A stretch of 64,000 bases of DNA from Mobula birostris (taxonomy: Eukaryota): the NCBI RefSeq assembly GCF_030028105.1, contig NC_092378.1, forward strand, positions 16,634,762 to 16,698,761. Reading direction: 5' to 3'. Shown piece after piece: positions 1 through 6,000 of the stretch. A program made the position numbers. Position 1 is the stretch's first letter, and each line of letters opens with the position of its first letter.

Positions 1-3000
1 TGAAAGAATACAGGGTGAAAGTAGGAAGTTGAGAGGAAAATTAGATCAGCCATGATGAAATAGTGGAGCAGACTCGATGGGCCAAATGGCCTAATTCAGT
101 TCCTATATCTAATGGTCTTATGGTATGGAACACCTAATTTTTTGAAGTATGAAATTTCATTCGATCTGAGTTTATATAGAGTTAAAAACAGCTTAAATAT
201 TACTTACTTACTTACTTGGACCCTTGGTCTCGGCTATCTCTGACCTCCTGTCTCCATCATCCTCTGAGAGGTATGTTTGGAGTTCAGCAATGTTTCTGCA
301 ACCTATTGCATTCTCTGTACAGGGAAGTGGATTATACAGCTTCACCAGAGCCCTGTTGGCTGGCCTTAACCCTTTCCACCTCTCCATGGTGCAGGCATAG
401 GGTTGGACTTTGAGAAGTGAATAAATATTAAAAATTGCTTTTATTTTTACATTTTTAAATCCTTTTTTCTTTGTACTGTGAGTCAATGATATTTTTCGTT
501 ATTTTACATGGTTTAAGTGATGATACTTCAATCTGGTTGAACAGTCACAGGGTTGCTTGCTTTTCTTAAATACTCCCCTGGTAGTTTGTGTCACACTGGA
601 TCATCTTCTTGAGCATTCTTGAATTGTAGGATTAGTTGCTTCTACTCCAATGGAGGGCAGGAAGTATTTGATGGAGTGGGAAGTTTAGCAAAGTGGTGTG
701 CTCTTTCTGCCACTTCTCTCTGAATTCAAACTGCTTCCCAAAAGATTCAAGGTGTTATCCTGAATGTCCCTACTCCATTTTGGGCAATAATGAGCCTGGA
801 ATTCCATAAGTCATTGAAGGTACAACATTTTTTTAACAGAAGCTGCTCTAACTCTGCAACTCTACAACTCGTTCCCAGTACTATTTTTCTGCTGCTTTAT
901 TATTTGCATTAAATTTTCTTCTTTTGTGCATTTGTTGTACGCCAGTATTTGTTATTTATAGCTTTTCATGAATGCTATTTTATTCCTTTATGTTCCTGTA
1001 AATGCCTGCAAGAAAATGAATCTCAAGGTAGTATATGGAGACAGGTATATACTTTGATATTAAATTTACTTTGTGTAGGAGCCATGCATCTGGTATTTAT
1101 CTGCATCGTATTCTGTGTGCAGTGTTTATTATGGTAGCTACCCATGTGGGTGAGAGCATGGTAAAAGCAAAGAGAATAAGTTGCCTATTCATGCTTTATT
1201 CTGGTTAGTTTTAGAGCTGGGGACCACCAGGTGTGATATATTTTATTGACCGCTTAATTACATTTGAAATAGTTTAACTCTACTTAACTTTGCTTAAGTC
1301 CACTTAAGTACATTGCATTTCGTTGATTTGAGTTTCATAAGTTTCTACACTTCAAGATTGTATGTTTTACTAGTTACTAATAAAGGATCAAATACATTTC
1401 TTTGACTTTTTGAACATTGGTATTGGATTGGATCATGGAGTTTGTCATACAGAATAAATCACCTTATTTCATCTCTAACAGTGGCGCTGATTTGTTTGGG
1501 TAGTCGCCACACTTGGACTTTGGCCATTTGAACTTCCTGATATTTTCTTTCTGTTATGGACTTTGGAATAGATTACCTGTTTCAAGATTTTAAAATTGGG
1601 CATACCAATAGCTAGAAATCCTCTGATGCATTAGTGATGATCTTGCTGAAAACCATTAAATGTGACAGATTTTGGAATCTGTCTAAGGGAAAAGTAGATA
1701 GATATTTATTTTTGCATGAATTACTGAATCATAGAAAATTAAAACACAGAAAGAACCATTTTGCCTGCTGTATCTGTGCCAGCTAAGTAACAGATGTCAG
1801 CCTTATCCTAACTTCCAGCATTAGGTTTGTACCCCTGCAGGTCAAAACTCTTCAGGCACACTTCCAGGTGCTCCTTAAGTGTGATGAGAGCTTCTGCCTC
1901 CACCACCTTTTCAGACACTGATTTCCAAACCACCAACAGCTTACTTCTTTTGTCAATCAGTTTAAGGATGTCATCTGACCTTCACTCCTCAGTTAGAGGT
2001 AACAGGTCCTTCCAATTTTCTGTGATCTTATAAGGAGACCTGGATATCTTGATTAAATCTCCACTTAGCATCTTCTTTTCAAAATGAAACAATACCTACC
2101 TGTCCAATCTCTCAATTCGTAAACATGTCTGATCTTGCTATCATCCTAATAAATCTGTAGTCTGGCAACCAGAACTGTATGCAGTACTAAGGCTGCAGTT
2201 CAGCTGGTGGTGAGGGTAACTTGCATTTCATATTGGTTTACAATATTATTAAATTAGCCCTTTTAACTCGTTTAATGATTCAGTTGGCCATTCTCTTACC
2301 AGTTAGTTATATCAGATGACATTGAATTTCTTTTTATCTCTGGGCTTAACATGTTTGTGCACAATTGAAACGTAGACCTATTGATCTTATATTCCCAAAG
2401 AAAAAAAAATTCTCTGTGTCTTTGAAATAAGCCTGTCCAAAGGACACAAAACAAAATCCGTCCGTTCACCCTCTAACTTGACTGGAGTCAGCTGATTAGG
2501 TCACCTTAGCTTTTGACAATAAATGTTCGAGCATTTTTTTGGGGTGAGGTTGGAGGAAGTTGGTCACGGTGAGGTGTCTAATTAGGAAACCTACCATTAA
2601 TGGTCATAAAATAGTTTTTTTTTAGCTCGAAATGCTGATCTTACTAGAACGTTTGAATTTGCACAATCGGCAGATCCGAATTACCTGCTAGAAAGCGGAA
2701 ATTTATCGAATAAACTCCACACGTCATCAGATCATTGAGGGAAATTTCAGTACTACCTTTGATAGATATATAAACATTGCACACAGGCAGTCTGTTCAGA
2801 AAAGCAGATAGCGGGCTAGCTCAACACATCTTTTTCACGTGTGGTTATCAGCCTTATCTCAATCTTGATTAAGGTGCAGCGAAGTTAAGATAGTTTTGAC
2901 TTGCAAGTGAGCTAGATCTGTCTGATAGCTTGTTTTCAGAATGTATTCCCTCGCGTCTGTAGCTGTGTTGGTACTTGGTTGCTTTGCAGTCCTGGGGAGC

Positions 3001-6000
3001 AGTGCCCCGAGTCTGAAATCCAGGAGATCGAGTGCGGTTTGTCACGTAGAAGAACATTTACTACGACAAATGAGACATAAGTTTCATGTCCTGTCTAAAG
3101 ATGTAAGTAAAGGAATTTGCCTTTCATTCTGCATACAAATTAATGTTGTTTCAAGCTTTTTAACAACATCTCTAATCCATATCCATCATTTCACAGGCTC
3201 AAAAGCACGACGAGGATACGGAGACGAGACTAGTGGGAAAGGATCTATTTCGAGGACTGGAGGTATGACACTGTATTGGTGCGATGCTCTTTAATCTCAC
3301 CGAACGCACGTGATCAATTCACAGTATCGTTTCTTTTTGGAGAATACCTGTAAGATCTATGGTTTGCTTTGCAGAAATCTGGTAGTTGCTACGTTCTCAA
3401 AGAGGTGATTGACTTCTATCTTGGAACCGTTCTCCAGTCTGACCATTTGCACGCCAAATATTTGCATCTAAGCGACGTTAAAGAGTTTCTCGCCGTTCTC
3501 ATGAAACGGCACATGTCTGACTGCGTAAGTGTTTCCAGTTCTGATTGAACCAATTCGAGATAACATAGACTTGATACCGCTTGCATTTCAAACGAGTAAT
3601 TAAGTACGCAGTGTTATGACTCTGCTGGTGGGCAGACAGCTCAAATTCGGGCTCAGTAGTAGAAGGGAGAGGAACTATACGAAAGTACTGCTGACTGGAA
3701 CAGGCGCTGAAACGAGTTCTTGTGATTGAATTGGTTGTGTTCTTTTCAGGATACTGAAGATAAAACGAAAGCCAACAAAAACATCGAACGACTGAAACAG
3801 AAAGTGGAGAAGGTAATTTACTAAGAATTCATGCACATTGTGCAGATCAGATTCAAGACATAAAACTGTTGTGCTCCTAGTGAGGTACTCGGGAATCATC
3901 TGTACAAATTCGATTATGTTTCAACAATGTGACACAATCAAGAGTGAGAAAAAGAATTGATCTCAGTAGAGTTCAGCATTCGGTATTCATGTGACTTTCT
4001 GTAACCATCTTTTCGGCGCTATGTTTCGTGTAGAAGATTTCCTAGTTTTCCTGCACTGAAATAATTCAACTGATGTTAATTTGTTACTCTGGTTCGTTTA
4101 CTCCAGCTCGGCGAAGCGAGTGAGGCCAAGGTTGTCGGGGAGCTGTTCATCCTCCTGCAGGAGATAACGAGCCGCTGTTCAACACCAGGATGGAAACCCG
4201 GACACCAGGGGAAATCACCGATTGATAACTGAGGAAAGCAAACCAAGACGCAAGGAAACAGTACTAGTTTCCCCAAAAAATATGTTTTATTAACTTAACA
4301 AGGAAGTATTTATTTCTGATGTATTTATTGTGTATAATGTTATACACATCATTGTAATTACTTACAGTAATTTTTGTGTAGCAATCAGCATTGCCTTGCT
4401 AATGGTCACTTGTAATGCATTTTTATTCATGTATGGCAGAAAGTCGAAGATAGTGGCTTTATAAAACTGAATAAACCTTTGAAATCATTTTCATGTGATG
4501 ATATTTATGTTACACGTGAAGGAACTGTTTTATGCAGAAATTGTTACCTTAATAGCAAAATATCTTGAAATGTTCTACATTTCGTTGCAAGGGCAGCATC
4601 TAGTTTCTTCCGGAAACAAATAACCATTACAAACAAGTCTATGCCGGGTTGTCATTGGAAAACACAAATGCAATGCGCAACTTTATCAGTTAAACGTTGA
4701 AGACAAGTTGAAGAAAGGTTCGAAGAAAGGTTCTTTGAATTTCATAGGCCTTGTAATAGCAAAAATTCCACCAAAACACCAAGCTCGCTAATAAATAAAC
4801 AATTGAAATGCTTTCCTGTTAAACCGACCCGATCTAAAATCTGGTATAAAGAATTATCACTTGAAAGAAGGTAGTGTTAAAAGAATCTGCAGGGATTTCT
4901 CCACAAGGAAATAATTTGTAAATATTGCGTATTCTGATAGACCAATTAACCATGTACTGTAATAAGTGTTGGCTGTTGCTGTTATAGTTTATCATGAAAA
5001 CTTGACGTCTGTCACACAACGATTATTATAGTTGTCGAATGAGTGTTCGTTTAGATTTAGGACGCCTAGTTTCAGTTTTTACAGAAGCGCCTATCGCCGT
5101 TCAATTTGGCGTGAGTAAATGAAGAGTTCTTATCTCCCAGCACATAAACAACAGAAGCACAATCTGACGCGACGTCATAGACTCCCAAAGAATTAAATTG
5201 GGTCTCTCTTGGGATTACATAAGGAAGAAATCATCAGAAATGATGTTACGTTGTAATAATATTATGGATTGCATCTTAAAGACGTCATCCTCATTGCGAA
5301 ATACGGGACAAACTTTTTCTTCGTTTTAGTGGAAGAAACGGATCGTTCAAAACTAACGCGCAATATCAACATGCCCATGAATGTATTAATATTTCTGGCT
5401 ATTCACACCTGAGCAAATATGTTTGATACTTCTTCAAGAATAACAGTGATATAATTTCAAGGTCCCTTTGTCGCCGTTCGGAGGAGAGTTCTGGGATTAG
5501 GACCCAGTAGTGATAAAGGAGGTAACATCTCACCAAGTGGAGAATTTTCAGCTTTGCGTTCCCTGAACTTGTTGCCAATATCCTTCCACGTAGGTTTTAG
5601 GGTAATATGGAAGAGGTATCATGAGTTACTAGGCTGATCAGGAAGATCACAGCACTGACTCATGTATTGTAGACACCTGAGTCAGTAGATGAGCTACCTG
5701 CCTCGGAATGGCCAGGAAATGACCTGTATATGCACACCATTCAGTGAATATCGTACATGACCACTTTTGATGTTATAATGAAGGTAAGGTTATAAATATG
5801 CAACTGAATCATGTCAGATATGAGAAGTACATTAATTTATCATTTTATCTTAATCATCCTTCAACGCAGGGAGATTTTCCCTTGATTTCTAATGACTTAC
5901 TTTTATAGAGCTCCTTCCAGACACTGTCAAATAATACTTTAATGTCAACTGAAAAGCAAGAAAAAGAAATAACTGTAGATGGTGATAAGCTGACAAATAA

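What the first reader, a model, noticed from the sequence alone, without database searches (positions are those of the whole stretch)
2941..4232. Complete IL-22 gene hidden from the ORF track, with tetrapod-like disulfide architecture
Seen: five phase-0 GT-AG coding exons (162/66/150/63/126 nt) give a 188-aa secreted protein; the ORF track shows only an exon-1 read-through. Knowledge: human IL-22 has disulfides C40-C132 and C89-C178, and here C34/C126 and C81/C171 sit at equivalent exon positions. Inference: an IL-22 orthologue from a probable cartilaginous fish, which bears on the antiquity of Th17/ILC3-type mucosal immunity.
Basis: partly seen in the sequence, partly recalled or inferred. 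Interest (0 to 1): 0.72.

Follow-up and report, generated by a model that had tools for sequence, protein, structure and literature searches.

The report
Manta ray interleukin-22 gene, already annotated

Summary
Five GT-AG, phase-0 coding exons lie at 2941-3102, 3197-3262, 3375-3524, 3750-3812 and 4107-4232 on the + strand. They give 54+22+50+21+41 = 188 residues.

Exons 2-5 and the last 11 residues of exon 1 match RefSeq XP_072125451.1, "interleukin-22-like [Mobula birostris]", letter for letter. The sister species' 188-aa record XP_062915694.1 has the same five-exon layout and differs at 3 of 188 residues. So the window is giant manta ray DNA, not human.

IL-22 identity is well supported:
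- Pfam scores IL22 at 84.7 bits and IL10 at 19.4 bits.
- A profile of ray and shark orthologues scores mammalian IL-22 structures at 80-82 bits, IL-24 at 44 and IL-10 at about 25.
- The predicted fold of a stingray orthologue is closest to human IL-22, with TM 0.85.
- All four cysteines align with those of mammalian IL-22.

Synteny could not be tested, because no other gene was recognised in the window. No tree with paralogue outgroups was possible.

Elephant shark IL-22 was published in 2015 (PMC4690019). Novelty is minimal.

The parts
2767..2774 (+). TATA-like motif (TATATAAA), 167-174 nt upstream of the ATG; candidate core promoter
   Evidence: Pattern scan and sequence. Its function is inferred from position only.
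2941..3102 (+). Coding exon 1 (54 aa). It holds the start codon, a hydrophobic signal peptide (about residues 1-22, cleavage site judged by eye after small residues at -3/-1), C34 and the start of helix A.
   Evidence: tblastn of P0007-P0014 gives 53-77% identity over the whole exon. 53 of 54 residues are identical to M. hypostoma XP_062915694.1. No signal-peptide predictor was available.
3103..3196 (+). Intron 1 (94 nt, GT..AG, phase 0)
   Evidence: The junction is confirmed by P0006 and P0026.
3197..3262 (+). Coding exon 2 (22 aa): the conserved D-x-D-T-x-T-R-L-x-G-x-x-L-F-x-G segment
   Evidence: Pfam IL22 positions 25-44, E 0.23. Several of its columns are invariant across 14 IL-22 sequences.
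3263..3374 (+). Intron 2 (112 nt, GT..AG, phase 0)
3375..3524 (+). Coding exon 3 (50 aa), with C81 as its 5th residue and C126 as its last
   Evidence: Pfam IL22 positions 47-93, E 0.0016. 100% identical to XP_072125451.1.
3525..3749 (+). Intron 3 (225 nt, GT..AG, phase 0)
3750..3812 (+). Coding exon 4 (21 aa), without a cysteine
3813..4106 (+). Intron 4 (294 nt, GT..AG, phase 0)
4107..4232 (+). Coding exon 5 (41 aa plus TGA at 4230-4232): helix F, C171, and a 17-residue tail that mammalian IL-22 lacks
   Evidence: The tail has low model confidence (pLDDT below 50 for residues 174-183 of the orthologue model).
4233..4475 (+). Probable 3' UTR, with two ATTTA motifs (4308, 4323) and an AATAAA signal at 4470-4475
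   Evidence: Pattern scan. The roles as AU-rich element and polyadenylation signal are inferred. No transcript data were available.

Best explanation
This is the intact interleukin-22 (IL-22) gene of the giant manta ray Mobula birostris, or a very close relative. Five phase-0 exons encode a 188-residue precursor. Inferred steps: a signal peptide of about 22 residues is removed, and the mature protein is secreted as a monomeric helical class-II cytokine. It would be held by two disulfides homologous to human C40-C132 and C89-C178, here C34-C126 and C81-C171. It would signal through an IL-22RA1/IL-10RB-type receptor pair to JAK/STAT3 in epithelial cells, supporting barrier defence. Shown here: the gene structure, the identity with RefSeq records, the family assignment, the aligned cysteines and the predicted fold of a close orthologue. 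Not shown here: secretion, disulfide pairing, receptor use and tissue expression, which rest on orthology and on published work in other species.
For: Structure.

Identity to public records. Exon 3 is 100% identical to XP_072125451.1. That record equals the last 11 aa of exon 1 followed by exons 2, 3, 4 and 5 without a gap. The M. hypostoma 188-aa record differs at 3 of 188 positions.

Family assignment:
- Exons alone hit only Pfam IL22, collinearly: exon 2 at positions 25-44 and exon 3 at positions 47-93.
- P0006 scores 84.7 bits on IL22 (cut-off 30) and 19.4 bits on IL10 (cut-off 24.2). P0007 scores 89.1 against 34.5.
- The profile of 9 elasmobranch proteins, searched against 5.8 billion proteins, gave 18 hits at E<=10: 14 cartilaginous-fish records and 4 mammalian IL-22 (E 1e-20 to 1e-11, 32-34% identity).
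- With mammals added to the profile there were 126 hits at E<=0.001. None of the 120 listed is named IL-19, IL-20, IL-24 or IL-26.
- The profile against the PDB scored mouse and human IL-22 at 78.6-82.3 bits (E about 1e-22 to 5e-21), IL-24 at 43.7 and 32.4, zebrafish IL-22 at 27.5 and IL-10 at 20-27.

Fold. The AlphaFold2 model of the stingray orthologue P0007 (89% identical to P0006) has pLDDT 72.4 and pTM 0.69. The best 9 Foldseek PDB hits are IL-22 chains and the 10th is an IL-22-based display protein (3q1s). 1m4r_A gives target TM 0.85 and rmsd 1.9 A; 6weo gives 0.87. IL-24 reaches 0.67 and IL-10 monomer 0.71.

Cysteines. The four columns are shared with mammalian IL-22. The human pairing C40-C132 and C89-C178 is as stated in PMC8573258 (passage).

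The gene tree separates a cartilaginous-fish clade from a mammal clade (100/100), with Mobula beside the stingray.
Against: No neighbouring gene was recognised in the window, so the MDM1-IL22-IL26-IFNG synteny expected of an IL-22 orthologue is not shown. I collected 621 stop-free ORFs of at least 45 aa and dropped 176 as repeat-like. The other 445 gave only the IL22 exon-3 ORF (E 1.2e-4), one weak RVT_1 and scattered chance-level hits. No IL-26 sequence, and no IL-10-family paralogue from a cartilaginous fish, could be compared. The tree has no paralogue outgroup, so orthology rests on score gaps and not on a rooted phylogeny. Exons 1, 4 and 5 alone hit nothing in Pfam, and exons 1 and 5 alone hit nothing in the PDB. 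Both RefSeq models for M. birostris start at the internal Met44, so the annotation pipeline did not use the upstream ATG in this species. There is no expression evidence.
Confidence: 0.93

Rival explanations
1. It is another IL-10-family paralogue (IL-26-like, IL-20/24-like or IL-10) that automated annotation has merely named IL-22-like.
For: The whole family shares the five-exon, phase-0 structure. PMC4690019 calls this organisation typical of the IL-10 family (passage). Most elasmobranch orthologues also pass the Pfam IL10 cut-off (P0007 34.5 bits). UniRef names the catshark orthologue 'Interleukin-10'. No IL-26 sequence was available for comparison, and elephant shark has an IL-26-like gene in the IFNG locus (PMC4690019).
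Against: The IL22 model beats the IL10 model by 55-65 bits. PDB IL-22 chains score 35 to 60 bits above IL-24 and IL-10. The only hits outside cartilaginous fish are IL-22. All four cysteines match IL-22, and exon 4 has none. The elephant shark record named IL-22 is a clear relative (E 1e-41). By eye, the IL-26L sequence printed in PMC4690019 shares only family-level similarity.
Confidence: 0.03
2. It is a non-functional or silent copy (a young pseudogene or assembly duplicate), and the working IL-22 gene of this species is the second record XP_072125450.1 elsewhere on the chromosome.
For: M. birostris has two 145-aa records on a contig of the same length. They differ at two residues of exon 5, and the second exon 5 is not in this window. 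No transcript evidence was seen here.
Against: The reading frame is open through all five exons. All eight splice sites are canonical. A TATA-like motif and an AATAAA signal are in place. All four cysteines and every column invariant among 14 IL-22 sequences are kept. Only 3 of 188 residues differ from the sister species.
Confidence: 0.04

Closest known systems
RefSeq 'interleukin-22-like' of Mobula birostris (XP_072125451.1, 145 aa) and Mobula hypostoma (XP_062915694.1, 188 aa)
   Same: It is the same gene. XP_072125451.1 is letter-identical to exons 2-5 plus the end of exon 1. XP_062915694.1 has the same five-exon, 188-aa layout with 185 of 188 residues identical.
   Different: The M. birostris RefSeq models start at Met44 and so lack the signal peptide and C34.
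Human and mouse IL-22 (PDB 1m4r, 3dgc, 6weo)
   Same: 32-34% identity to the stingray orthologue P0007. The model of that orthologue has the same monomeric helical fold (target TM 0.85-0.87, rmsd 1.8-2.0 A). The four cysteine columns are the same. The exon-2 D-T-x-x-R-L-I/V-G-x-x-L-F segment and the helix-F K-x-x-G-E-L segment are conserved.
   Different: The Mobula protein has no N-x-S/T sequon, and 12 of 13 cartilaginous-fish sequences have none, whereas the five mammalian sequences checked have 3-4 each. The ray protein has a 17-residue tail after the last cysteine, while the Mus, Orycteropus and Rhynchocyon IL-22 sequences end one residue after it.
Elephant shark (Callorhinchus milii) IL-22
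   Same: It is a clear relative within cartilaginous fish (E 1e-41, 46-50% identity). Published expression is highest in intestine and gill (PMC4690019, Table 1 as text).
   Different: The public record (139 aa) is also truncated at the N-terminus. It sits on a long branch in the tree.
Teleost IL-22 (zebrafish, PDB 4o6k)
   Same: Same family and the same five-exon gene structure (PMC7593840). Taken alone, exon 3's best PDB hit is 4o6k (E 0.27).
   Different: Teleosts keep three of the four cysteines, add a fish-specific adjacent one and pair them differently (PMC8573258 and PMC7593840, passages). The ray has the mammalian set. Zebrafish IL-22 scores only 27.5 bits against the elasmobranch profile, no better than IL-10.
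IL-24 and IL-10
   Same: Same class-II helical cytokine superfamily and exon plan. They are detectable by profile (IL-24 43.7 bits, IL-10 20-27 bits) and by fold (TM 0.61-0.71).
   Different: Scores are much lower, and P0006 falls below the Pfam IL10 cut-off.

Membership tests
Interleukin-22 (Pfam PF14565) | The sequence matches the IL22 profile above the curated cut-off (30 bits) and scores better than on the IL10 profile | tested here: met
   Exon by exon, only partial scores are possible: exon 3 gives 19.1 bits and exon 2 gives 12.2 bits, collinear, with no other family hit. The public record identical to exons 2-5 (P0006) scores 84.7 bits on IL22 and 19.4 on IL10. All 14 of 14 aligned relatives match IL22. 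The joined 188-aa model itself was not scanned.
Interleukin-22 | Four cysteines homologous to human C40, C89, C132 and C178 | tested here: met
   C34, C81, C126 and C171 fall in the same alignment columns as the mammalian IL-22 cysteines. The human numbering comes from PMC8573258.
Interleukin-22 | Disulfides actually paired C34-C126 and C81-C171 | not testable with these tools
   Model coordinates are not exposed. This needs mass-spectrometric disulfide mapping or a solved structure.
Interleukin-22 | Monomeric helical bundle closest to solved IL-22 structures | tested here: met
   Tested by proxy on the stingray orthologue P0007 (89% identical to P0006). The best 9 Foldseek hits are IL-22 chains (target TM 0.85-0.87) and the 10th is an IL-22-based display protein (0.79); IL-24, IL-10 and IL-20 reach 0.61-0.71.
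Interleukin-22 | Groups with IL-22, and not with IL-10, IL-19/20/24 or IL-26, in a phylogeny | tested here: inconclusive
   No paralogue sequences could be obtained, so the tree holds IL-22 only. The score ranking favours IL-22 strongly. IL-26 was not compared by any computation.
Interleukin-22 | Lies in the conserved MDM1-IL22-IL26-IFNG neighbourhood | tested here: inconclusive
   445 non-repeat ORFs of at least 45 aa on both strands gave no IFN-gamma, IL10 or other cellular family. The rest of the window is retroelement debris. Short exons and divergent genes would have been missed.
IL-10 cytokine family (gene structure) | Five coding exons with phase-0 introns | tested here: met
   The family-typical organisation is as stated in PMC4690019 and PMC7593840.
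Interleukin-22 | Signals through IL-22RA1/IL-10RB to STAT3; expressed in mucosal lymphocytes | not testable with these tools
   This needs recombinant protein, receptor assays and RNA-seq. PMC8863823 (passage) refers to an IL22RA1-IFNLR1 locus in shark.
Interleukin-10 proper (Pfam PF00726) | Matches the IL10 profile above its cut-off (24.2 bits) as the best family | tested here: not met
   P0006 scores 19.4 bits, below the cut-off. P0007 scores 34.5 bits, but that is 55 bits below its IL22 score.

The most novel reading that the evidence does not exclude
The ray and shark proteins show that the 'mammalian' four-cysteine layout (N-terminal Cys to end of exon 3; start of exon 3 to helix F) is the ancestral jawed-vertebrate state of IL-22. 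The teleost arrangement would then be a later rewiring. The ancestral protein may also have worked without N-glycans, because 12 of 13 cartilaginous-fish sequences have no sequon while the 5 mammalian sequences have 3-4 each. In addition, both RefSeq M. birostris models miss the true start codon at 2941, and the species may carry a very recent second IL-22 copy.
Probability: 0.5. Interest if true: 0.25.

Novelty: already known. Interest (0 to 1): 0.1.

Why it matters
It matters little beyond annotation hygiene. The window shows that the M. birostris gene has an intact upstream start codon, signal peptide and first cysteine that the two 145-aa RefSeq models omit, so those models should be extended to 188 aa as in M. 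hypostoma. For comparative immunology it adds one more batoid data point. It confirms that IL-22 predates the split between cartilaginous and bony vertebrates, and that the tetrapod cysteine pattern, not the teleost one, is shared with cartilaginous fish. Both points can already be read from public records and from papers such as PMC4690019 and PMC7593840. A 2025 survey (PMC12652433, passages read) traces IL-22/26 back only to bony fish or reptiles. The records found here contradict that statement.

Tried and rejected
(1) Joined spliced model. Every search from the window used a single exon, and full-length comparisons used public records returned by the tools.

(2) Exons 1 and 5 alone against the PDB gave 0 hits each at E<=10. 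Exons 1, 4 and 5 alone gave 0 Pfam families.

(3) Exon 3 alone against 1.84 billion representatives gave only 4 hits at E<=0.001, all cartilaginous fish. That was too few to reach paralogues.

(4) Scanning long translated stretches with Pfam was rejected by the tool because of stop codons. I replaced it with stop-free ORFs given as window references.

(5) Synteny scan. Of 621 ORFs of at least 45 aa, 176 were dropped as repeat-like before scanning. The remaining 230 plus-strand and 215 minus-strand ORFs gave no IFN-gamma, IL10-family or other cellular gene. The only hits were the IL22 positive control, one RVT_1 at E 0.0083, and single hits at E of 0.002 or weaker that I take for chance. Exons shorter than 45 aa and very divergent genes such as IL-26L would escape this scan.

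(6) A second IL-22 copy in the window was not found by tblastn.

(7) Outgroups for a paralogue tree. All three word-indexed searches returned only IL-22.

(8) Five unnamed hits (P0040, P0126-P0129) were not fetched or used, because their origin is unknown and might be human.

(9) Papers. The main text of the elephant shark genome paper has no occurrence of IL-22, IL22, Th17 or IL-26 (PMC3964593). Redmond et al. 2018 has none of IL-22 or IL-26 (PMC6238376). Figures and supplements are not held. [quoted passage not shown]

(10) Measuring Cys-Cys distances in the model was not possible because no coordinates are provided.

(11) Neither complex prediction nor the protein-atlas search was used, since the family is known.
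Full report
**What is in the sequence.** Positions 2941-4232 of the + strand hold five coding exons: 2941-3102, 3197-3262, 3375-3524, 3750-3812 and 4107-4232. Their sizes are 162, 66, 150, 63 and 126 nt. Every intron starts with GT (GTAAGT, GTATGA, GTAAGT, GTAATT) and ends with a pyrimidine tract and CAG. The introns are 94, 112, 225 and 294 nt, and all are phase 0. Translated one at a time, the exons give 54, 22, 50, 21 and 41 residues followed by TGA, or 188 in all. A TATATAAA lies at 2767-2774. An AATAAA lies at 4470-4475, and two ATTTA motifs lie between the stop codon and it. 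The window has no N, has a CpG observed/expected ratio of 0.37, and is full of reverse-transcriptase fragments.

No search, family scan or fold was run on the joined 188-aa model. Each exon was searched alone. Full-length comparisons used public protein records that the searches returned.

**Whose gene it is.**
- Exon 3 alone, searched against longer proteins, returned 9 proteins at E<=1 among 11 candidates, all from cartilaginous fish. The best hit, at 100% identity, is "interleukin-22-like [Mobula birostris]".
- That record is XP_072125451.1, 145 aa. It consists of the last 11 residues of exon 1 followed without a gap by exons 2, 3, 4 and 5.
- The same 90% cluster holds XP_062915694.1 of Mobula hypostoma, 188 aa. 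Compared exon by exon, it differs from the window at 3 of 188 positions: 50, 106 and 150.
- The window is therefore giant manta ray (Chondrichthyes, Batoidea, Myliobatiformes) and not human.
Both M. birostris RefSeq models begin at Met44 and lack the signal peptide and the first conserved cysteine. The window has the upstream ATG, and its exon 1 is 53/54 identical to M. hypostoma and 53-77% identical to eight other species.

**Is it IL-22?**
- Single exons. Alone, the exons hit only Pfam IL22, in collinear order: exon 2 at profile positions 25-44 (E 0.23) and exon 3 at positions 47-93 (E 0.0016). Exons 1, 4 and 5 hit nothing.
- Exon 3 against solved structures. It weakly hits zebrafish IL-22, IL-24 and human IL-22 (E 0.27-1.4). 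Exons 1 and 5 give no PDB hit.
- Pfam on public records. P0006 scores 84.7 bits on IL22 (cut-off 30) and 19.4 on IL10 (cut-off 24.2). The stingray orthologue P0007 scores 89.1 against 34.5.
- Elasmobranch profile, database-wide. A profile of nine elasmobranch proteins found 18 proteins at E<=10 among 5000 candidates: 14 cartilaginous-fish records, including Callorhinchus IL-22 at 1e-41, and four mammalian IL-22 at 1e-20 to 1e-11 with 32-34% identity.
- Profile with mammals added. There were 126 hits at E<=0.001 among 3045 candidates. None of the 120 listed is named IL-19, IL-20, IL-24 or IL-26. These searches need shared five-residue words, so the absence of paralogues is weak evidence.
- Elasmobranch profile against the PDB. 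This search has no such word limit:

| PDB protein | Bits |
|---|---|
| Mouse and human IL-22 | 78.6-82.3 |
| IL-24 | 43.7 and 32.4 |
| Zebrafish IL-22 | 27.5 |
| IL-10 | 20-27 |

- Fold. An AlphaFold2 model of P0007 (89% identical to P0006), built on a 14-sequence alignment, has mean pLDDT 72.4 and pTM 0.69. The core is helical, and the signal peptide and C-terminal tail are disordered. The best nine Foldseek PDB hits are IL-22 chains and the tenth is an IL-22-based display protein. Human 1m4r_A gives target TM 0.85, rmsd 1.9 A and 34% identity; mouse 6weo gives 0.87. IL-24, zebrafish IL-22, monomeric IL-10 and IL-20 follow at 0.61-0.71.
- Gene tree. A tree of 18 IL-22 sequences separates cartilaginous fish from mammals (100/100) and puts Mobula beside the stingray. 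It has no paralogue outgroup and cannot test the rivals.

**Cysteines.** C34, C81, C126 and C171 are kept in every full-length elasmobranch sequence. They fall in the same alignment columns as the four cysteines of mammalian IL-22. PMC8573258 (passage read) gives the human pairs as C40-C132 and C89-C178, and says that the zebrafish pairs differ. PMC7593840 (passages) says that teleosts keep three of the four and add a fish-specific adjacent cysteine. The zebrafish alignment shows that doubled cysteine.

**Differences from mammalian IL-22.** The Mobula proteins have no N-x-S/T sequon, and 12 of 13 cartilaginous-fish sequences have none. The five mammalian sequences examined have three or four each. 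The ray protein also carries 17 residues after the last cysteine.

**Surroundings.** I looked for the neighbours expected of an IL-22 locus. tblastn with 12 IL-22-like proteins found no second copy; outside 2929-4229 the best E-value is 0.017. Of 621 stop-free ORFs of at least 45 aa, 176 were set aside because they recur within the window. The other 445 were scanned against Pfam at E<=0.1. They returned the exon-3 ORF as IL22 (E 1.2e-4, the positive control), one RVT_1 and scattered single hits at E of 0.002 or weaker. There was no IFN-gamma, no IL10-family member and no other cellular gene. Short exons and divergent genes would be missed. Synteny is therefore untested, not refuted.

**What is already known.**
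- PMC4690019 (2015; passages read) tabulates elephant shark IL-22 expression: intestine 15, gill 4, kidney and spleen 0. [quoted passage not shown] Its Figure 2 and supplementary file are not held.
- PMC7593840 (2020) includes a shark IL-22 in its identity table, at 31% to human.
- PMC8863823 (passage) refers to an IL22RA1-IFNLR1 locus in shark.
- PMC12652433 (2025; passages) traces IL-22/26 only to bony fish or reptiles. The records above contradict this.
- The main text of the elephant shark genome paper, and that of Redmond et al. 2018, do not mention IL-22.

**Verdict.** The gene is an intact IL-22 orthologue of a manta ray. It most likely encodes a secreted monomeric cytokine that acts through an IL-22RA1/IL-10RB-type receptor and STAT3. 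That mechanism is inferred from orthology and not shown here. The finding is already known, both as a database record and as a published fact about cartilaginous fish. What it adds is a corrected start codon for the M. birostris model. Interest is low.

Noticed in passing
window 2941-3069 (first 43 codons of exon 1): Both RefSeq models for M. birostris (XP_072125451.1 and XP_072125450.1, 145 aa) start at Met44 and omit the signal peptide and C34. The window has the intact upstream ATG, and the M. hypostoma record XP_062915694.1 uses it (188 aa).
   Followed up: yes
not in the window (compare exon 5, 4107-4232): M. birostris has a second 145-aa IL-22-like record (XP_072125450.1) on a contig of the same length. 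It differs at two residues near the last cysteine. No second exon 5 exists in the window, so it is a recent duplicate, a haplotype or an assembly duplicate elsewhere.
   Followed up: partly
window 10286-11455 (+) and 54715-56113 (-): Two copies of one retroelement family lie in opposite orientation; their translated ORFs are visibly alike. They coincide with the two GC-rich segments of opposite GC skew (10-12 kb: GC 0.50, skew -0.33; 54-56 kb: GC 0.51, skew +0.40). Pfam finds no family for either at E<=0.001.
   Followed up: partly
window 18847-19416 (+), 40447-41076 (-), 22213-22806 (-), 60487-60999 (+): Reverse-transcriptase (RVT_1) fragments, and ORFs matching the small ALKBH8_N domain (E 6e-12 and 2e-6), occur repeatedly. 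176 of 621 ORFs of at least 45 aa recur within the window. The 60 kb downstream of the gene looks like retroelement debris with no recognisable cellular gene.
   Followed up: partly
exons 1-5 and orthologues P0007-P0014, P0019: No N-glycosylation sequon occurs in 12 of 13 cartilaginous-fish IL-22 sequences, while the 5 mammalian IL-22 sequences have 3-4 each. PMC12652433 treats the N54 glycan as a conserved IL-22 feature.
   Followed up: partly
public records P0014, P0015, P0016-P0018: There are annotation oddities in relatives. UniRef names the cloudy catshark orthologue 'Interleukin-10'. The Heterodontus record (276 aa) and the Narcine isoforms (197-251 aa) carry extra N- or C-terminal stretches that look like mis-predicted exons.
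   Followed up: no
literature: PMC12652433 (2025) states that the IL-22/26 subfamily can be traced back only to bony fish or reptiles. This conflicts with the RefSeq IL-22 records of more than ten cartilaginous-fish species and with PMC4690019.
   Followed up: partly
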